A DNA stretch of 64,000 nt from Usitatibacter sp. (GTDB taxonomy: Bacteria; Pseudomonadota; Gammaproteobacteria; Burkholderiales; Usitatibacteraceae): assembly GCA_049300695.1 (NCBI GenBank), contig JBAQKF010000032.1:8292-72291 (forward strand), written 5' to 3'. Both the position numbers and the translations under genes were made by a program. The notes beneath the pieces were generated by a model. It made no database searches. It was not told where the DNA came from and worked only from the letters and a program-made list of their open reading frames with translations. Of the stretch, positions 17,489 through 51,997 are shown piece after piece (within the stretch, counting starts at the first letter, position 1; every line of letters begins with the position of its first letter).

Positions 17489-18471
17489 GGGCCGTCATCT
17501 GCTCGCGCCTCGACGGCCCCGAGGCGCTCACGGTGGGCGACATGGTGGCGCCGAAACCCGTGCAAGGCCAGGTGCTGGTGGAAGTGCGCGCGGCCTCGCT
17601 CAACTTCCCCGACGTATTGATGGTGCGCGGCCTGTACCAGGTGAAGCCGCCGCTGCCCTTCTCGCCCGGCGCGGAGCTCTCCGGCGTCGTTCGCGAAATC
17701 GGCCCCGGGGTCGATCGAATCAAGGTGGGCGACTCGGTGATCGGTTTTTCGGGGCATGGAGCCTTTGCGGAGTACTGCGTCGTGGACGCGGCGCGCGTGA
17801 TGCCGATGCCGCCGGGACTTCCGTTCGACGTCGCCGCGGCCGTGGGACTCACGTACGGCACGGCGCTCCATGCGCTTCGCGATTGCGGAGTGCTCAAGTC
17901 CGGCGAGACGCTCGCGGTGTTGGGCGCCGCGGGTGGAACCGGCATCGCGGCGATCGAATGCGGAAAAGCCCTGGGCGCGCGAGTGATCGCGTGCGCGTCG
18001 AGCGAATCGAGGCTCGAGCTTTGCCGCAAGCATGGCGCCGACGAAACGGTGAATTACGCGACGGAGGACCTGCGGGGGCGCCTCGATGCGCTCACGGACA
18101 AACGCGGCGTCGATGTCGTATTCGACGCAGTGGGCGGGGCGTACACGGAGCCCGCGTTCCGCGCGACGGCGTGGAAAGGTCGCCTGCTCGTCGTGGGCTT
18201 CGCCGCCGGCGAGATCCCGAAGATGCCGATCAATCTCGCGCTGCTTCGCGAGCGCTCCATCGTCGGCGTGTATTGGGGCGACTGGACGCGGCGCGATCCC
18301 GCGGGCAACGCGCGCAACATGATGGACATCGCGAAATGGCTGGGCGACGCCACCGTGAAACCGGCGATCACCGAACGCATCGGCCTCGACGCGACGCCCG
18401 ATGCGATCGCGCGCATGGCGAGGCGTGAGATCACGGGCAAGGTCGTCGTCCTCCCGGGGGGGGCGTCGTGA
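17485..18471 (+). CDS. NADPH:quinone oxidoreductase / zinc-independent MDR family oxidoreductase
   Basis: ATG at 17485 overlaps the ACAD stop (ATGA). MRAVICSRLDGPEALTVGD..., PFSPGAELSGVV and nucleotide-binding VLGAAGGTGIAAIE. The upstream 798 codons of the 1126-aa track ORF are an out-of-frame artefact. Confidence 0.88.
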   Translation: MRAVICSRLDGPEALTVGDMVAPKPVQGQVLVEVRAASLNFPDVLMVRGLYQVKPPLPFSPGAELSGVVREIGPGVDRIKVGDSVIGFSGHGAFAEYCVVDAARVMPMPPGLPFDVAAAVGLTYGTALHALRDCGVLKSGETLAVLGAAGGTGIAAIECGKALGARVIACASSESRLELCRKHGADETVNYATEDLRGRLDALTDKRGVDVVFDAVGGAYTEPAFRATAWKGRLLVVGFAAGEIPKMPINLALLRERSIVGVYWGDWTRRDPAGNARNMMDIAKWLGDATVKPAITERIGLDATPDAIARMARREITGKVVVLPGGAS

Positions 18472-19286
18472 GCCGCGTCGGCATCGTTCGCGGAAGTCCC
18501 GCAGGCCGTGAAGACCGCCAGTTCGTCACGGCGCTCGCGCGCGGCCTCGATATCCTCAGGTGCTTCTCGCGCAAGGACCGCGAGCTCGGCAATCGCGAGA
18601 TCGCCGCGCGGACGGGGCTGCCCAAGCCCACGGTGAGCCGCCTCACCTTCACGCTGATGCAGATGGGCTATCTCACGTGCGCTCCCGACACCAAGCGTTA
18701 TTCGCTGTCCGTCGGCGTGCTCGCGTTCAGCAACGCGTACCTCGGCACGCTCGATGTGCGCAACATTGCCCGGCCGCTCATGCAGGGGCTCGCCGACGAC
18801 TTGCACGCCACGGTGTCGCTCGGGGCGCCGGACCCGTCGAGCCTGCACATGGTGTACCTGGAGATCACACAGGGCACGGGCCAGATGTTCCGGATGAGCA
18901 TGGACGTGGGCTCGCGCGTGCCGCACGGATGGACCGCGATGGGCCGCGCGTACCTCGCGGCGCTCACGCCCGAGCAGCGCGAGGAGCGATTGAGCCTGTA
19001 CAAGAAGGACACGCCGCGCGCGCGCTGGAACGAGATCGGCATGGGCATCGACCGTGCCGTCCGCGACTACGAACGCTTCGGCTTCTGCCTGTCGGTGGGC
19101 GAATGGAACAAGGACGTGTGGGCCGTTGGCGCGCCGATGGTTTCGCGCGAAGGCGGCCGCATCCTCGCCTTCAACTGCAGCGGCCCCATCTTCGACATCA
19201 CGCGACAGAAGATCATCCAGAACATCGGGCCGCGCCTGCTCGAGCTGCGCGACCAGGTGGCCGCCTCGACCGGCGGAGTGTTCTAG
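18468..19286 (+). CDS. IclR family transcriptional regulator
   Basis: GTG at 18468 overlaps the previous stop (GTGA). N-terminal wHTH ALARGLDILRCF...LGNREIAARTGLPKPTVSRLTFTL and a C-terminal IclR effector domain. Confidence 0.9.
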   Translation: MSRVGIVRGSPAGREDRQFVTALARGLDILRCFSRKDRELGNREIAARTGLPKPTVSRLTFTLMQMGYLTCAPDTKRYSLSVGVLAFSNAYLGTLDVRNIARPLMQGLADDLHATVSLGAPDPSSLHMVYLEITQGTGQMFRMSMDVGSRVPHGWTAMGRAYLAALTPEQREERLSLYKKDTPRARWNEIGMGIDRAVRDYERFGFCLSVGEWNKDVWAVGAPMVSREGGRILAFNCSGPIFDITRQKIIQNIGPRLLELRDQVAASTGGVF

Positions 19287-19360
19287 GGTCAGACCCCGGT
19301 TATCGCTGGCGCGTGAGGGCCTCCCGCTCGAAAACCGGGGTCTGACCCTGGTTTATTTTT
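19286..19360. terminator. GGGTCAGACCCC-family palindrome between convergent genes. Likely a bidirectional terminator.
   Basis: 16-bp perfect arms GGGTCAGACCCCGGTT (19286-19301) and AACCGGGGTCTGACCC (19333-19348) with a 31-nt loop, followed by TGGTTTATTTTTTT. It sits between the IclR stop (+) and the thioesterase stop (-). Confidence 0.6.
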
Positions 19361-39055: not shown

Positions 39056-41101
39056 TTAAATCGTGTCCCAACCCGTATCGGCTTCGAATCTGAGCCCGTG
39101 AGCCTTCTTCAGCTCTTCCATGATGCGCAGCCACTCCTGCTTGCCGCGCGCGCGGATGGTGGCGATGGGGCCGCCGCGATGCGGCGCGAAGCCGGTGCCG
39201 AAGATCACGCCCGCGTCGCAGAGGTCTGCGTCGGCGACGATCTTCTCGCGCACGCACGCCACCGCCTCGTTCAGCGCCGGAAGCACCATGCGGTCGGCGA
39301 GCGCCTTGAGATCGACCGTACCCGGGCCGATGGAGCTCTTCTGCGCCTTGCCCTGGGTCCATGTGTAGAAGCCCTGGCCCGTCTTCTTGCCGAATTTCTT
39401 CGCCTCGACGAGGGCCTGCAGTTTCTTCGGGATCGGCGAGCCGGGCTTCGCGAGCTCCTGCCCCACGGCCCAACCGATGTCGAGGCCCACCATGTCGGCG
39501 AGCTCAATCGGTCCCATGGGCATGCCGAAATCCTTCGCGGCCGCATCGATCGTCTCGGGCGGGATGCCCTCGTCGACCATGAGCATCGCCTCGAGGAGAT
39601 ACGGCGAGAGCACGCGGTTCACGAGGAAGCCCGGCGCCGACTTGCAAGGCAACGGGAGCTTGTCGATCTGGCGCGTGAAGGCCTGGCCGATCTGCATCAC
39701 GGTGGGCGAGGTCTGCGGGCCCTCGACGATCTCCACGAGCATCATCTGCGCGACGGGGTTGAAGAAGTGCAGCCCCACGAGCCGCTCGGGGCGCTGGAGG
39801 ATCGACGAGAGCTGCTGCAATGGAATGCTCGACGTGTTCGTGGCGAGGACCGCGCCTTGCTTCATGCGCGGCTCGACCTGCGCATAGACCTTGCGCTTCA
39901 CGTCGGCGTTCTCGACGATGGCCTCGATGATGATGTCGGCCCGGGCCACGCCATTGCCGGCGACGTCGGGAATCAATCGGTCGAGCGCCGCCTGGACGAG
40001 GTGCGGCTGCTTGAGGCGTTTCTTGTAGAGCTCGGCCGCGCGCTTGATGGCCGGCGCGATGCGATCGGGCGCGAGATCCTGCAGCGTCACCGTGACGCCG
40101 CGCAGCGCCGCCCACGCGGCGATGTCGCCGCCCATGGCACCCGCGCCGATGACGTGGAGATGAGCAACTAACCCGGGGTCAGACCCCGAAGCAGACCGCG
40201 CTTCGGGGTCTGACCCCAATTTCTTCAGCCGCTCCTGCAGCTTGAAGATGCGAATGAGGTTCTTCGCCGTCGGATGGAAGAAGAGGCTCGCGGTCGAGGC
40301 GGGATGGTCGCGGGGAATCTTGCGCGGGTCACCGTCGAAGTCCTTCCACAAATCGATGATCGCGTAGGGCGCAGGGTACTGGTCGCGCCGCACGCGCCTG
40401 GCGACCTGCCTGGCCGACATCTTCGCCACGATGTCGCGAATGCCCGGCCAATCGCCCGCCGCCTGCGTGAACGTCGGATGGTGAAGCGCCGGCGGATTGT
40501 TGAGGATCATGCGCCCGGCGTTGTCGAAATGCCGCCTGGGAGTGACCGCGTCGACGAGGCCCATCTTCTTCGCGCGCCGGCCGTCCACGCCACGGCCCGT
40601 GAGCATGAGATCGAGCGCCGCCGCGGAACCGATCAGCTTCGGCATGCGCTTGGCCGCACCCCATCCGGGGACGATGCCCAGCATCACTTCCGGCAGCGCC
40701 ATGCGCGTCTTCGGGCCATCGTCCATCACACGGTACTTGCAGGCGAGGGCGAGCTCGGTGCCGCCACCCATGCAGAAGCCGTGGATCAGCGCGAGCGTGG
40801 GGAAAGGCAGCGCGGCGATCTTGTCGAAGACCTCGTTGCCGAGCGCCACGAACGCCATCGCTTCATCGGCATCGCGCAGCGTCGTGAACTCGTCGATGTC
40901 GGCGCCGGCGACGAAGCCATTCTCCTTCGCCGAGAGGATCGCGAGGCCCTTGGGGGGCATCGAGGCCAGGTGATCGGCGATCTGCCCCAGCTCGCGCAGC
41001 ACTTCGCTCGAGAGCGTGTTGGTCGAGGCGCCCGCGCGATCGAACGCGAGCCACGCGAGATGATCCGCATCGACGTTGAGCTTCCAGTGCTTGAGTTCCA
41101 T
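39056..41101 (-). CDS. Bifunctional enoyl-CoA hydratase / 3-hydroxyacyl-CoA dehydrogenase (FadB-like) carrying an in-frame palindromic insert in the interdomain linker
   Basis: ATG at 41101. N-terminal crotonase fold (FVAGADIDEF, GFCMGGGTELALAC), then the linker ...LQERLKKLGSDPEARSASGSDPGLVAHLH, then Rossmann VIGAGAMGGDIA and the HACD C-terminal domains. Confidence 0.88.
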   Translation of the reverse strand: MELKHWKLNVDADHLAWLAFDRAGASTNTLSSEVLRELGQIADHLASMPPKGLAILSAKENGFVAGADIDEFTTLRDADEAMAFVALGNEVFDKIAALPFPTLALIHGFCMGGGTELALACKYRVMDDGPKTRMALPEVMLGIVPGWGAAKRMPKLIGSAAALDLMLTGRGVDGRRAKKMGLVDAVTPRRHFDNAGRMILNNPPALHHPTFTQAAGDWPGIRDIVAKMSARQVARRVRRDQYPAPYAIIDLWKDFDGDPRKIPRDHPASTASLFFHPTAKNLIRIFKLQERLKKLGSDPEARSASGSDPGLVAHLHVIGAGAMGGDIAAWAALRGVTVTLQDLAPDRIAPAIKRAAELYKKRLKQPHLVQAALDRLIPDVAGNGVARADIIIEAIVENADVKRKVYAQVEPRMKQGAVLATNTSSIPLQQLSSILQRPERLVGLHFFNPVAQMMLVEIVEGPQTSPTVMQIGQAFTRQIDKLPLPCKSAPGFLVNRVLSPYLLEAMLMVDEGIPPETIDAAAKDFGMPMGPIELADMVGLDIGWAVGQELAKPGSPIPKKLQALVEAKKFGKKTGQGFYTWTQGKAQKSSIGPGTVDLKALADRMVLPALNEAVACVREKIVADADLCDAGVIFGTGFAPHRGGPIATIRARGKQEWLRIMEELKKAHGLRFEADTGWDTI
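40175..40217. repeat. 43-bp perfect palindrome of the GGGGTCAGACCCC family, located inside a CDS
   Basis: Arms GGGGTCAGACCCCGAAG (40175-40191) and CTTCGGGGTCTGACCCC (40201-40217) with a 9-nt loop. It reads through in frame as GSDPEARSASGSDP on the minus strand. Confidence 0.9.
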
Positions 41102-49420: not shown

Positions 49421-50950
49421 ATGGTAATCGCCGTGGCCCTCGCGGTCACGGGATGCGCGAGCCTGCCGGCGCTCGAGGGGCGCATCGAGACGCGCGCGCT
49501 CGCGAATACGGGCGAGACGCGCCTCGCCAAGTCCGTGGCGCCGCTCGTCGCGGCCCACCCGGGCAAGACGGGAATCCACGCGCTGGCCAATCCGCTCGAT
49601 GCCTTCGCCGCGCGCGTCCTGCTCGCTTCCACCGCCGAGAAATCGCTCGACGTGCAGTACTACATCTGGCGCGACGACCAGACGGGTTATCTCCTGTTCG
49701 ACGCGCTGTGGCGGGCCGCCGAGCGTGGCGTCCGCGTGAGATTACTGCTCGATGACAACAACACGAAGGGCCTCGACGAAGTGATCGGCGTGCTGGACGA
49801 TCATCCGAACATCGAGGTGCGGCTCTACAATCCCGTCGCCTATCGCGGCGCGCGGATGCTCAACTTCCTCACGGATTTCGAGCGGGTGAACCGGCGCATG
49901 CATAACAAGTCGTTCACTGCCGACAATCGCGTGACAATCGTCGGCGGACGCAACGTCGGCAACGAATACTTCGGCGCCGGCGAGGACGTGCTCTTTGCGG
50001 ACCTGGACGTGATGGCGGTCGGCCCCGCCGTCCAGGAGGTTTCCAATGCGTTCGACCTCTTCTGGAACAGTGCCTCTGCATATCCCGCATCGCTGCTCGT
50101 GCCGAAGGCGGCGGCCGACGCGCGCGAACGGCTGGAGGCGAAATTCGTCGAGGTGGGCGCCGAGCCCGAATCCCGGAAATACGAAGACGCGGTCCGCCGC
50201 ACGCCGCTCGTGACCAACCTCCTCGATGGCAAGCTCGACCTCGAATGGGACGATGCGCGAGTCGTACGCGACGATCCCGCGAAAACACTGGACACGGCCG
50301 AGCGGCACGACGTCCTTCTCCTCACGGACCTGCTGCAGAATTTCGGGCGCCCGGAGGAATCGTTCGATCTCGTGTCACCCTACTTCGTGCCCGGCAAGAA
50401 TGGAACGAAGGCGATCTCTTCCCTCGCGCAGCGCGGAGTGTCCACCCGCGTGCTCACCAACTCGCTTTCGGCCACGGACGTGAGCGCCGTGCATGCGGGC
50501 TACTCCAAGTGGAGAAAGCCCCTGCTCGAGGCCGGCGTGAAGCTCTACGAGCTCAAGTCCACGTCGAGCGTCCTCGAGGGCGACGAGAAAAAGGAACGCA
50601 AGGAAAAGAAGGGCAGCTCGCCCGAGAGCCTGCACGCGAAGACTTTCGCGCTCGACCGCAAGCGGATCTTCGTCGGCTCGTTCAACTTCGATCCGCGTTC
50701 GGCGCTGCTCAACACCGAGATGGGCCTCGTGATCGATAGCCCCGCGCTCGCCACGCGCCTATCCGACGCCATGGATTCGGGCCTCGCGAAGAACGCCTAT
50801 GAGCTCGGCCTCACGCGCGAAGGCGAGATCGAGTGGATCGAGCACGATCCCGCGGGCGACAAGCGATACGACACCGAACCGCAGACCACCGCGTTCAAGC
50901 GCGCGGCGGTCTGGTTCCTGTCGCTCCTGCCGATCGACTGGCTGCTTTAA
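49421..50950 (+). CDS. Phospholipase D / cardiolipin synthase-family lipoprotein (two HKD motifs)
   Basis: ATG at 49421 gives the lipoprotein signal MVIAVALAVTGC. HKD motifs are MHNKSFTADN and LHAKTFALDRKRIFVGSFNFD. Confidence 0.85.
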   Translation: MVIAVALAVTGCASLPALEGRIETRALANTGETRLAKSVAPLVAAHPGKTGIHALANPLDAFAARVLLASTAEKSLDVQYYIWRDDQTGYLLFDALWRAAERGVRVRLLLDDNNTKGLDEVIGVLDDHPNIEVRLYNPVAYRGARMLNFLTDFERVNRRMHNKSFTADNRVTIVGGRNVGNEYFGAGEDVLFADLDVMAVGPAVQEVSNAFDLFWNSASAYPASLLVPKAAADARERLEAKFVEVGAEPESRKYEDAVRRTPLVTNLLDGKLDLEWDDARVVRDDPAKTLDTAERHDVLLLTDLLQNFGRPEESFDLVSPYFVPGKNGTKAISSLAQRGVSTRVLTNSLSATDVSAVHAGYSKWRKPLLEAGVKLYELKSTSSVLEGDEKKERKEKKGSSPESLHAKTFALDRKRIFVGSFNFDPRSALLNTEMGLVIDSPALATRLSDAMDSGLAKNAYELGLTREGEIEWIEHDPAGDKRYDTEPQTTAFKRAAVWFLSLLPIDWLL

Positions 50951-50962
50951 AGTGCTTCAAAA

Positions 50963-51002
50963 GGGGTCAGAGCCCTTTTTCCGCGAAAAGGGCTCTGACC
51001 CC
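50963..51002. terminator. GGGGTCAGAGCCC-variant palindrome between convergent genes. Likely a bidirectional terminator.
   Basis: 17-bp perfect arms GGGGTCAGAGCCCTTTT (50963-50979) and AAAAGGGCTCTGACCCC (50986-51002) with a 6-nt loop. The A/T runs inside the stem give U-tracts in both orientations. Confidence 0.65.
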
Positions 51003-51997
51003 TACTTCGCAGCCGCCTGGCCGGCCCGGGTCCGGTCGAGCACCGTCATGGCGCTCGCGACGAGCCCCGCCACGTCGGAGACGTTCGCCGGGATGATGAG
51101 CGTGTTGCTCTGCTTGGCGAGGTTGGCGAAGGCTTCGATGTACTGGCCCGCGACCTTCAGGTTCGCGGCTTCCATGCCGCCGGGTGCGGCAATCGCGGCG
51201 GCCACGACGCGCACCGCGTTCGCCGTGGCGTCGGCCACGAGCTGGATGGCGCCCGCTTCGCCGGCCGCCTTGTTGATCTGTGCAGCCTTCTGGCCCTCGG
51301 ACTCGAGGACTGCGGCCTGGCGCGCGCCGTCGGCCACGTTGATCTCCTGCTGGCGCTTGCCCTCGGAGGTCGCGATCACCGCGCGCTTCTCGCGCTCGGC
51401 GGTGATCTGCGCCTGCATCGAGCGCAGGATCGATTCGGGCGGCGTGAGGCTCTTGATCTCGTAGCGCAGCACCTTGATGCCCCACGTGCGGCCCGCTTCG
51501 TCGAGCACCTGCACCACGATGTGGTTGATCTCGTCGCGGCTCTCGAAGGTCTTGTCGAGCTCCATCTTGCCGATCGCCGAGCGAAGCGCCGTTTGCGCGA
51601 GCTGCGTGATCGCCTGGACGTAGTCGGACGAGCCGTAGGAGGCAAGCCGCGGATCGATCACCTGGTAGTAGAGGATGCCGTCGACGGAGAGCTGTGTGTT
51701 GTCCTTCGTGATGCAGATCTGCTCGGGCACGTCCATCGGCACTTCCTTCAGCGAGTGGCGGTAGGCCACCCGGTCGAAGAACGGGACGATGAGGTTCAGG
51801 CCCGGCTCGAGCACGCGGAAGAACTTGCCGAAGCGCTCGACCACCCACGCGTTCTGCTGCGGCACGATGCGAACGCCCTCGGCGACGAGGACGATGAACA
51901 TCGCGACGATGAAGGTGGCCAAGCCAAGCAGCGGACTGTGCGTGACCGAGCCCACGGCAACAGTCACGATGAGCGCAACGATCATCTTCCAGAACAT
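51002..51997 (-). CDS. SPFH/band 7 (stomatin-like, QmcA-type) membrane protein
   Basis: 331 aa. N-terminal TM region, then RIVPQQNAWVVERFGKF...L.PGL..I.PF.D and the coiled EREKRA...EGE...A region. Confidence 0.9.
   Translation of the reverse strand: MFWKMIVALIVTVAVGSVTHSPLLGLATFIVAMFIVLVAEGVRIVPQQNAWVVERFGKFFRVLEPGLNLIVPFFDRVAYRHSLKEVPMDVPEQICITKDNTQLSVDGILYYQVIDPRLASYGSSDYVQAITQLAQTALRSAIGKMELDKTFESRDEINHIVVQVLDEAGRTWGIKVLRYEIKSLTPPESILRSMQAQITAEREKRAVIATSEGKRQQEINVADGARQAAVLESEGQKAAQINKAAGEAGAIQLVADATANAVRVVAAAIAAPGGMEAANLKVAGQYIEAFANLAKQSNTLIIPANVSDVAGLVASAMTVLDRTRAGQAAAK

What the first reader, a model, noticed from the sequence alone, without database searches (positions are those of the whole stretch)
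40175..40217. REP-like 43-bp perfect palindrome inserted in frame in the interdomain linker of a FadB-like gene
GGGGTCAGACCCCGAAG-cagaccgcg-CTTCGGGGTCTGACCCC has a 17-bp perfect stem. It belongs to the same family as the two intergenic palindromes at 19286-19348 and 50963-51002.

This copy sits inside the 681-aa enoyl-CoA hydratase/3-hydroxyacyl-CoA dehydrogenase CDS and is read through as GSDPEARSASGSDP. It lies just after the conserved ...LQERLKKL helix of the hydratase half and 8 codons before the Rossmann motif VIGAGAMGG of the dehydrogenase half.

In-frame palindromic-element insertions are known from Rickettsia (RPEs) but are rarely noted elsewhere. A 17-bp GC-rich hairpin in mid-CDS could also pause ribosomes or create an RNase site that uncouples the two halves.
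Basis: seen in the sequence. Interest (0 to 1): 0.62.

Follow-up and report, generated by a model that had tools for sequence, protein, structure and literature searches.

The report
In-frame REPIN palindrome in enzyme linker
A 43-base mobile DNA hairpin (a REPIN, with its own transposase-like gene elsewhere in the genome) sits in frame in the flexible linker of a fatty-acid oxidation enzyme and is read as 14 extra loop residues; this kind of insertion is already published, but related species carry different hairpins at this same spot.

Summary
Window 40175-40217 is a perfect palindrome (18-bp stem, 7-nt loop). It lies in frame in a 681-aa FadJ/FadB-type gene on the minus strand and encodes GSDPEARSASGSDP.

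It is a REPIN, an inverted doublet of a REP hairpin (GGGG-WCWGW-CCCC):
- The genome holds about 142 REP units and 56 doublets.
- It has one RAYT-type tyrosine transposase gene, flanked by the same elements. The sister species shows the same arrangement.

Nine of the 56 doublets lie in frame in seven real genes: this one, LigD, MutL, UvrD, a PrmB-like methyltransferase, a squalene/phytoene synthase and a DUF2339 protein. Most sit in interdomain linkers.

AlphaFold gives pLDDT below 50 for exactly the 14 inserted residues.

Among 120 orthologues, 45 have a short linker with no insert. The others carry different palindromes at this site, and the type follows each genome's own repeat families. A loop of the PrmB-like gene behaves the same way.

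In-frame REPs are already described (Di Nocera et al. 2013; Rickettsia RPEs), so this is a new member of a known kind. I read it as a tolerated passenger. A role for the mRNA hairpin was not tested. The recurrent occupancy and turnover of the same sites is the less familiar part.

The parts
40175..40217 (.). 43-bp REPIN: perfect palindrome with an 18-bp stem and a 7-nt loop, made of two inverted REP arms 30 nt apart
   Evidence: It matches the genome-wide 13+17+13 family.
40175..40187 (+). Left REP arm GGGGTCAGACCCC (T/A variant of the genome's dominant GGGGACAGACCCC)
40205..40217 (+). Right REP arm GGGGTCTGACCCC, the exact reverse complement of the left arm
40175..40216 (-). Codons for residues 296-309 (GSDPEARSASGSDP), the translated insert
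   Evidence: Translation. AlphaFold pLDDT is below 50 for exactly 296-309, between helix 277-294 and strand 314-318.
39056..41101 (-). 681-aa FadJ/FadB-type enoyl-CoA hydratase / 3-hydroxyacyl-CoA dehydrogenase gene, intact
   Evidence: The best PDB relative is the fatty acid oxidation complex alpha subunit chain 8bnu/6ysv (which I take to be E. coli FadJ), E 3.5e-107. There are 120 orthologues at 74-93% identity.
19285..19349 (.). 65-bp doublet of the 'aaccGGGG..CCCCggtt' sub-family, intergenic. It overlaps the TAG stop of the upstream plus-strand ORF and is followed by a T-run.
50962..51003 (.). 40-42-bp doublet of the TTTT/AAAA sub-family (arms GGGGTCAGAGCCC), squeezed between two convergent gene ends

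Best explanation
The palindrome is a REPIN: two inverted copies of a short REP hairpin (stem NNNGGGG, loop WCWGW, stem CCCCN'N'N'). Its family is associated with a single RAYT-type (HUH/Y1) transposase gene in the same genome.

One copy became fixed inside the FadJ/FadB-type gene, in the disordered linker between the last helix of the hydratase half and the first strand of the Rossmann fold.

**Why the reading frame survives (follows directly from the sequence)**
- The REP arms contain no stop codon in any frame.
- The two arms are exactly 30 nt (10 codons) apart, so both are read in the same phase, here as G-S-D-P.
- This copy's 17-nt interior has no in-frame stop.

The net change against orthologues without the insert is +9 codons, so the element partly replaced the native linker.

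**What it does (inferred)**
It is translated as a 14-residue Gly/Ser/Asp/Pro loop and is tolerated. It is most likely a neutral or selfish passenger, not a functional module.

**Shown and inferred**
- Shown: family membership, the RAYT association, in-frame read-through, the absence of the insert in many orthologues, the predicted disorder, and different inserts at the same site in relatives.
- Inferred: that RAYT activity, or recombination or template switching between REP copies, put it there and later swapped its interior; and that it is selectively neutral.
For: **Family**
- 89 loci and 56 doublets in the genome, with the dominant 43-bp form ttcGGGGACAGACCCC-N17-GGGGTCTGTCCCCgaa.
- 142 REP units with consensus yTAsTTC-GGGGACAGACCCC-(G/T)A(G/A).

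**RAYT**
- G000 C48:38646-39365 encodes a 240-aa protein with DNHVHLLL and RYIELNP motifs.
- It scores 58 bits on Pfam Y1_Tnp, over the cut-off. Its best NCBIfam hit is REP_Tyr_transpos.
- A REPIN lies about 43 nt upstream, and a REP arm overlaps its stop codon.
- The 78%-identical orthologue in sister genome G040 has a REPIN 42 nt upstream. G000 and G040 hold 37 and 15 doublets of the searched pattern. Of the other 79 genomes, one (G011) holds 19 and the rest hold 0-3.

**In-frame copies elsewhere in the genome**
- Nine doublets lie in seven genes, with Pfam domains on both sides of the insert or spanning it.

**Orthologues**
- 45 of 120 have no insert. The nearest relatives include one without an insert (P0005).

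**Structure**
- pLDDT is below 50 for exactly residues 296-309.
- The site aligns with the chain's linker [22 protein letters not shown] in the best PDB hit (8bnu).

**Gene integrity**
- There are no stops, and the columns GGG-E116, P137-E138 and H445 are invariant in the alignment.

**Literature**
- In-frame REPs, many of them in DNA-repair genes, are reported by Di Nocera 2013.
Against: - The canonical 5' GTAG tag of RAYT-associated REPs is not present as such. The consensus here is yTA(G/C).
- The RAYT scores 73 bits, under the 80-bit NCBIfam cut-off.
- The window copy's own outer flanks (ctaaccc / aatttc) match the family flank consensus only partly.
- The insert adds 27 nt against orthologues without it, not 43, so it is not a clean insertion.
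- No transposition was observed.
- Neutrality is inferred. The mRNA hairpin is strong (-54.5 kcal/mol, z -5.85) and could affect translation or mRNA decay. No RNA data could be consulted.
Confidence: 0.85

Rival explanations
1. The mid-gene hairpin is functional at the RNA level. A 21-pair GC-rich stem would pause ribosomes between the two enzyme halves, aiding domain-wise folding. Alternatively it would be an RNase or 3'-end stabilising site that uncouples expression of the two halves. On either view it would be maintained by selection.
For: - The mRNA fold is very stable: -54.5 kcal/mol, z -5.85 against shuffles.
- The two arms keep perfect complementarity although this changes amino acids. 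The T:A and A:T arm variants covary in orthologues L034 versus L036/L037.
- Many REPs are transcribed and act as RNA elements (Di Nocera 2013).
Against: - The insert is absent in 45 of 120 orthologues, including a sister at 91-93% identity.
- Inserts differ in family, length and junction among close relatives.
- Arm complementarity is equally explained by the recent origin of each copy or by conversion from other genomic copies.
- There is no U-tract after the stem on the sense strand.
- No expression data were available.
Confidence: 0.08
2. The segment is an ancestral, fast-evolving low-complexity linker, and its palindromic character is coincidental. No mobile element is involved.
For: - The linker varies in length across the family, from 662 to 718 aa.
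- The best PDB hit (8bnu, a FadJ-type alpha subunit) also has a Pro/Ser/Asp-rich linker here.
Against: - An 18-bp perfect stem is beyond all 20 shuffles.
- The same 13-nt arms with the same 30-nt spacing occur in 37 doublets of this genome, almost all outside genes.
- Relatives encode their inserts with their own genomes' repeat types.
Confidence: 0.01
3. The element was not inserted by a transposase. It was copied into an existing hairpin-bearing site by gene conversion or replication template switching between REP copies, with the 13-nt arms acting as microhomology. On this view the diversity at this site comes from repeated overwriting of one old insertion, plus deletions, and not from many independent insertions.
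For: - The window and its nearest relative L031 share both junctions: AAGAAAYTG|GGGTCAGACCCC and GGGGTCTGRCCCC|GGKTTRGTY. Their 17-nt interiors are unrelated (GAAGCGCGGTCTGCTTC versus GGTTTTGACGAGAAACC), and each is self-complementary at its ends.
- The 15-member 'KKLG' clade (support 100) keeps the junctions but has at least five different interiors.
- Insert type follows the host genome's own repeat repertoire.
- Nunvar 2013 reports different REP classes at orthologous RAYT flanks.
Against: - At least six different junction and insert types exist: FGK kept or replaced, a single hairpin, GEGRGEG, a dRS3-like palindrome. One founding insertion is therefore not enough.
- 13 nt is short for RecA-dependent conversion.
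- The genes differ by about 11% in DNA, so much time has passed.
Confidence: 0.35

Closest known systems
Intragenic GTAG/CGTC REPs (Di Nocera, De Gregorio & Rocco 2013, BMC Genomics 14:522; PMC3733652)
   Same: - Short REP palindromes, often as dimers, inserted in frame in known genes and encoding about 14-30 residues.
- Many sit in replication and repair genes. Here they are in LigD, MutL and UvrD.
- They are thought tolerated because the target proteins are modular.
- RAYT genes are flanked by the same REPs.
   Different: - The host is a Usitatibacter-like betaproteobacterium, not in that survey as far as I could see.
- The tag is yTA(G/C), not GTAG.
- That paper, in the passages I read, does not report the same site being occupied by different REP families across congeners.
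REPIN-RAYT systems of Pseudomonas and E. coli (Nunvar 2010/2013; Bertels & Rainey 2011; Ton-Hoang 2012)
   Same: - Inverted REP doublets.
- A single-copy Y1/HUH transposase flanked by its own REPs.
- Patchy copy numbers among related genomes.
- REP sequence classes that change at orthologous positions (PMC3686654).
   Different: - Those REPINs are described as essentially extragenic. Here 16% of doublets are translated.
- RAYT activity on these REPs is untested here.
Rickettsia palindromic elements (RPE; Ogata et al. 2000, 2002; cited from my own knowledge and via PMC3733652)
   Same: Palindromic repeats inserted in frame into genes that remain functional, placed in loops that tolerate them.
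   Different: - RPE-1 is about 100-150 bp. No dedicated transposase is known for it.
- From my own recollection of that literature, not checked here, RPE insertion sites are largely shared among Rickettsia species.
- Here the elements are 40-43 bp, RAYT-linked, and differ between close relatives.
E. coli FadJ / anaerobic trifunctional enzyme alpha subunit (PDB 6ysv, 8bnu)
   Same: - Same domain order: crotonase fold, helical linker domain, then Rossmann 3-hydroxyacyl-CoA dehydrogenase.
- E 3.5e-107 over residues 6-673.
- The insert aligns with its interdomain linker.
   Different: The match is a distant homologue (query 681 aa against a 710-aa chain; identity not computed) and carries no palindrome-derived insert.

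Membership tests
REP/REPIN-RAYT system | Short imperfect palindromic unit present in many copies per genome | tested here: met
   142 units with a GGGG-WCWGW-CCCC core and conserved flanks.
REP/REPIN-RAYT system | Units occur mostly as closely spaced inverted doublets (REPINs) | tested here: met
   56 doublets. The dominant spacing is 13+17+13 = 43 bp.
REP/REPIN-RAYT system | A RAYT (Y1/HUH transposase) gene flanked by the same REPs | tested here: met
   - The gene is at G000 C48:38646-39365. It passes the Pfam Y1_Tnp cut-off, and its best NCBIfam hit is REP_Tyr_transpos at 73 bits against an 80-bit cut-off.
- A REPIN lies about 43 nt upstream, and a REP arm overlaps its stop codon.
- The sister genome G040 shows the same layout.
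REP/REPIN-RAYT system | Conserved 5' GTAG (or CGTC) tetranucleotide next to the stem | tested here: inconclusive
   The consensus 5' of the stem is yTA(G/C)TTC. TAG/TAC is conserved but the leading G is not.
REP/REPIN-RAYT system | Predominantly extragenic, close to the 3' ends of genes | tested here: met
   47 of 56 doublets lie outside coding frames by the GC3/ORF test. The two other window copies abut or overlap stop codons.
REP/REPIN-RAYT system | RAYT binds and cleaves its REP as single-stranded DNA | not testable with these tools
   Needs biochemistry of the kind done for E. coli TnpA_REP.
In-frame (translated) palindromic elements: intragenic REPs and RPEs | The element lies within a continuous ORF whose product is a recognisable, otherwise intact protein | tested here: met
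   The 681-aa ORF has ECH and HCDH domains on either side of the insert. Conserved motifs are kept.
In-frame (translated) palindromic elements: intragenic REPs and RPEs | Orthologues lacking the element exist | tested here: met
   45 of 120 orthologues have no insert. P0005/L032 is a sister of P0002.
In-frame (translated) palindromic elements: intragenic REPs and RPEs | The insert lies in a surface or disordered segment and not in the fold core | tested here: met
   AlphaFold pLDDT is below 50 for exactly residues 296-309, between helix 277-294 and strand 314-318. This is a prediction only.
In-frame (translated) palindromic elements: intragenic REPs and RPEs | The insert is actually translated into the mature protein | not testable with these tools
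   No proteome or RNA data.
Rickettsia RPE families | About 100-150-bp elements of the Rickettsia RPE sequence families | tested here: not met
   The element is 43 bp and belongs to a RAYT-linked REP family of a betaproteobacterium. It works like an RPE but is not a member.
FadB/FadJ-type multifunctional beta-oxidation alpha subunit | N-terminal crotonase fold plus C-terminal NAD-dependent 3-hydroxyacyl-CoA dehydrogenase in one chain | tested here: met
   Pfam hits ECH_1, 3HCDH_N and 3HCDH. PDB hits 8bnu, 6ysv and 1wdk.

The most novel reading that the evidence does not exclude
In this genus, a few permissive loops of conserved genes act as standing 'landing pads' for REP-type hairpins. The two seen here are the FadJ-like interdomain linker and the loop before the SAM-binding motif of a PrmB-like methyltransferase.

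Once a hairpin is present, the RAYT, or template switching between copies, repeatedly overwrites its interior or replaces it with the genome's current REP type. Orthologous coding sites would then record REPIN turnover.

If so, this is a natural and measurable read-out of REPIN mobility and replacement, which has not been observed directly. It would also be a steady source of new loop peptides.
Probability: 0.3. Interest if true: 0.7.

Novelty: new member of a known kind. Interest (0 to 1): 0.42.

Why it matters
**For annotation**
It explains an odd Gly/Ser/Asp/Pro loop in an otherwise ordinary beta-oxidation enzyme. Words such as GSDP, GTDP..GSVP, RGQTP..RGLSP and SPSPLGEGRGEG in Usitatibacteraceae proteins are translated repeats, not conserved motifs. 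These repeats also break assemblies exactly at such sites.

**For mobile-element biology**
A free-living soil and freshwater betaproteobacterial genus joins the organisms in which REP/REPIN elements are tolerated inside genes. Here 16% of the doublets are in frame, and they again favour repair genes and interdomain linkers.

**The part that could repay further work**
The same two coding sites carry different palindromes in closely related species. Each insert matches its host genome's own repeat family, and in one clade the junctions are conserved while the interiors are swapped. Orthologous coding sites are easy to align. They therefore offer a clean way to measure REPIN gain, loss and replacement rates.

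Tried and rejected
- **GTAG tag.** Not found as such.
- **RAYT by NCBIfam.** The hit is 7 bits under the cut-off. I rely on the Pfam hit plus the flanking REPs plus the conserved layout in G040.
- **Simple insertion model.** Comparing inserted and uninserted DNA (L001, L002, L031 against L032) shows no clean 43-bp insertion or target duplication. Native codons are replaced, and at about 11% DNA divergence the breakpoints cannot be resolved.
- **Counting independent insertions by parsimony.** The tree needs at least 26 changes of insert presence or absence, 19 of them forced by well-supported branches. This mixes insertion, loss, replacement and possible recombination, so I do not quote it as a number of insertions. 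Different junctions and repeat families support only 'at least six'.
- **Recombination test.** Divergence in the 100-300 nt flanking the linker is not raised for the window gene against its relatives. It is only mildly raised for the L034/L035 pair. The result is inconclusive.
- **Other in-frame candidates.** C10:35110, C48:40432, C13:19940 and the minus frame of C42:61852 were rejected. They have poor GC3-GC2 scores and low-complexity Arg-rich translations of the kind given by a wrong frame in GC-rich DNA.
- **Earlier notes of this scan.** None on this genome concerns this element.
Full report
**1. Observation**

Window 40175-40217 reads GGGGTCAGACCCCGAAGCAGACCGCGCTTCGGGGTCTGACCCC.
- It is a perfect palindrome with an 18-bp stem and a 7-nt loop.
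- Twenty first-order Markov shuffles of the window gave longest perfect stems of 0-15 bp. The only comparable hairpin in the window is at 50962-51003.
- The 13-mer arm occurs 8 times in the window with up to 1 mismatch, against 0.12 expected.

The palindrome lies in a minus-strand ORF. From MELKHW (41101) to the stop (39056) this gives 681 aa, and the element is read as G296-SDPEARSASGSD-P309.
- Pfam places ECH_1 at 26-194, 3HCDH_N at 316-487 and 3HCDH at 491-581.
- The best solved relative is the fatty acid oxidation complex alpha subunit of PDB 8bnu/6ysv, which I take to be E. coli FadJ (E 3.5e-107). Its own interdomain linker aligns with the insert.

**2. What the palindrome is**

The window is C32:8292-72291 of a 3.74-Mb, 65.8% GC draft genome. 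The closest named homologues are Usitatibacter sp. genomes assembled from metagenomes (lineage).

A census of the genome found 89 loci with the 13-mer allowing 1 mismatch.
- The dominant form is a 43-bp doublet, ttcGGGGACAGACCCC-N17-GGGGTCTGTCCCCgaa.
- Sub-families include a 40-bp TTTT/AAAA type and single 'aaaccGGGG..CCCCggttt' hairpins.
- Across 142 units the consensus is yTAsTTC-GGGGACAGACCCC-(G/T)A(G/A). Each unit is a 7-9-bp stem with a 5-nt loop, and a doublet is two inverted units.
- The window copy uses the T/A arm variant (GGGGTCAGACCCC / GGGGTCTGACCCC), a compensated change from the dominant A/T form.

The genome has one Y1/HUH transposase gene, at C48:38646-39365 (240 aa).
- It carries DNHVHLLL and RYIELNP motifs.
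- It passes the Pfam Y1_Tnp cut-off. Its best NCBIfam hit is REP_Tyr_transpos, at 73 bits against a cut-off of 80.
- A full 43-bp doublet lies about 43 nt upstream of its start codon. A single arm overlaps its stop codon, and two more doublets lie within 2 kb.
- The only close orthologue (78% identity) among 81 genomes of the family is in G040. It too has a doublet 42 nt upstream.
- G000 and G040 carry 37 and 15 doublets of the searched pattern. G011 has 19 of a 38-bp type, and the remaining genomes have 0-3.

This is the published signature of a REP/REPIN family with its RAYT. The canonical GTAG tag is not present as such.

**3. It is not a lone case in this genome**

I tested the 56 doublets with a frame test: a spanning ORF plus GC3-GC2 on both flanks. 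I then checked the candidates against Pfam. Nine doublets lie in frame in seven genes (peptides):
- This FadJ-like gene.
- LigD, between the ligase C-terminal domain and the primase-polymerase domain (KGSEPFSPEKGSDP).
- MutL, in its interdomain linker (SGTDPEARERVPYGTRGLSP, plus a third arm).
- UvrD, between the helicase C-terminal domain and the tudor domain (RGQTPSRGDRWGLTP).
- A PrmB-like methyltransferase, just before its SAM-binding motif (RGQTPNADDLRGLSP).
- A squalene/phytoene synthase (GDRPLGSGSRGLSP).
- A DUF2339 membrane protein, with three copies.

All three reading phases of the arms are used. The arms have no stop codon in any phase. In the 43-bp form the arms are 30 nt apart, so both are read in the same phase. 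Many extragenic copies begin their interior with TAG or TAA, which would be a stop in one phase.

**4. Orthologues**

Among 120 orthologues (74-93% identity), 45 have an 11-residue linker of the form (A/S)FGKxxxxP(V/I)R. The rest carry 2-45 extra residues at this same site. Recurring peptide words turn out to be translated palindrome arms:
- GSDP...GSDP
- PGTDP...PGSVP
- SPSPLGEGRGEG

DNA from 36 orthologous loci confirms real inverted repeats. Ten have a perfect stem of 9 bp or more, the longest 21 bp. Junctions and repeat families differ among them:
- FGK kept or replaced.
- 43-bp, 42-bp and 40-bp doublets.
- A single hairpin.
- The GEGRGEG repeat.
- A dRS3-like palindrome.

The insert type follows the host genome's own repertoire.
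- G040's insert is the T/A 43-bp type, as are all of that genome's listed doublets.
- The GEGRGEG repeat has 0 copies in G000, G040 and G061. It has 45 in G073, whose linker carries it. It has 168 in G052 and 58 in G079, whose contigs break exactly at the linker.

On a tree built without the linker columns, insert presence or absence needs at least 26 changes. Sisters can differ completely: P0078 and P0084 carry different inserts, and P0002 has an insert while P0005 has none. I do not equate those changes with insertions.

The window and its nearest relative L031 share both junctions. Their 17-nt interiors are unrelated, and each is self-complementary at its ends. This points to replacement of the interior and not to point mutation. 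Flanking divergence gives no clear recombination signal.

A second gene shows the same behaviour. In the PrmB-like loop, 15 of 29 congeners carry a perfect inverted repeat of 9-29 bp. Three species keep a mutually conserved, non-palindromic loop of similar length, which is probably the native state.

**5. Consequence for the protein and the mRNA**

AlphaFold2 on a 50-sequence alignment gave a mean pLDDT of 80.8. pLDDT falls below 50 for exactly residues 296-309, between helix 277-294 and strand 314-318. The only other such stretch is residues 483-489.

The columns GGG-E116, P137-E138 and H445 are invariant in the alignment, and I take these to be catalytic. The gene therefore looks functional, with a tolerated disordered loop.

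The sense-strand RNA folds to -54.5 kcal/mol (z -5.85). No U-tract follows the stem on the sense strand. The terminator-like call is on the antisense strand. The polymorphism among relatives argues against a conserved role.

**6. Comparison with what is known**

- Di Nocera et al. 2013 (PMC3733652) describe REPs inside genes in several species. These are often dimers encoding 20-30 residues, and many lie in replication and repair genes. Their view is that such inserts are tolerated in modular proteins. The LigD, MutL and UvrD cases here fit that pattern.
- Nunvar et al. 2013 (PMC3686654) report different REP classes at orthologous RAYT flanks.
- Rickettsia RPEs are the classic in-frame case, but they are longer and belong to other families.
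- Earlier notes of this scan describe similar in-frame REPs in other phyla. Two of them raise the idea that hairpins are overwritten and not merely inserted. My junction and interior comparison is compatible with that idea but does not prove it.
- A search for Usitatibacter listed nothing on repeats among the eight best of 84 papers.

**7. Verdict**

This is a new member of a known kind. The less familiar aspect is that the same coding sites are occupied by different, genome-matched palindromes in close relatives.

Noticed in passing
G000 C7:16744-16786 and loci L046-L075: The loop between VIVPRSFIAELL and LDLCTGSG of a PrmB-like methyltransferase is a second hot spot. 15 of 29 congeners carry perfect inverted repeats of 9-29 bp there, of various families. 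Three species keep a conserved non-palindromic loop (QPRRWDELPTFFGHPNRESV) of similar length.
   Followed up: partly
81 genomes of the family: A second repeat family, GGGAGAGGGNCGGGGTGAGGG, is translated as (SP)LGEGRGEG. It is absent from G000, G040 and G061 but has 45-168 copies in G073, G079, G008 and G052. In G016 and G060 it occurs in tandem arrays with about 39-66-bp spacing.
   Followed up: partly
G052, G079 (and split hits in G055, G069): Contigs end, or the match is split, at residues about 305-318 or 346-360 of the FadJ-like gene, at or close to the linker. The repeats there probably break short-read assemblies or cause frameshift errors.
   Followed up: no
G000 C47, UvrD-like ORF spanning C47:27173-27215 (minus strand): The UvrD-type helicase carries an intein-like insert of about 140 aa (CLPAGTRV...VTHNS). 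The Intein_splicing hit scores 32.9 bits, just under its cut-off of 35.8. The insert lies between the helicase N- and C-terminal domains. The same gene has the in-frame REPIN near its C-terminus.
   Followed up: no
window 19284-19349 and 50950-51004: Both intergenic doublets in the window touch stop codons. The TAG of the plus-strand ORF 18468-19286 overlaps the first arm. The stop of the minus-strand ORF 51002-51997 overlaps the last arm. The 19285 copy is followed by GGTTTATTTTTTT, so it looks like a terminator.
   Followed up: partly
window 40175-40227, plus strand: Read on the antisense strand, the in-gene hairpin is followed by AATTTCTTCA. The consensus scan flags it as terminator-like, so it could stop antisense transcription into the gene. 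The scan finds about as many such sites in shuffles (1 found, 1.8 expected).
   Followed up: no
L026 (G031) linker of the FadJ-like gene: This orthologue's linker holds a direct tandem duplication (GAGATCCCTCGTTCCGGC, twice) and a CATTCCCGCGAAGGCGGGAATCC palindrome that resembles the Neisseria dRS3 consensus. The palindrome is translated as HSREGGNP.
   Followed up: no
L034 versus L036/L037: The 42-bp 'NQAT' doublet has the same interior (AAYCARGCAACA) in these loci but T:A arms in one lineage and A:T arms in two others. The change is compensated on both arms although it alters the encoded residues (GSDP..GSDP versus GTDP..GSVP).
   Followed up: partly
81 genomes of the family: RAYT homologues are very common in this family: 68 of 81 genomes, with up to 6 per genome. 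They fall into several paralogue groups at 54% identity or less to the G000 copy. Some carry internal stop codons.
   Followed up: no
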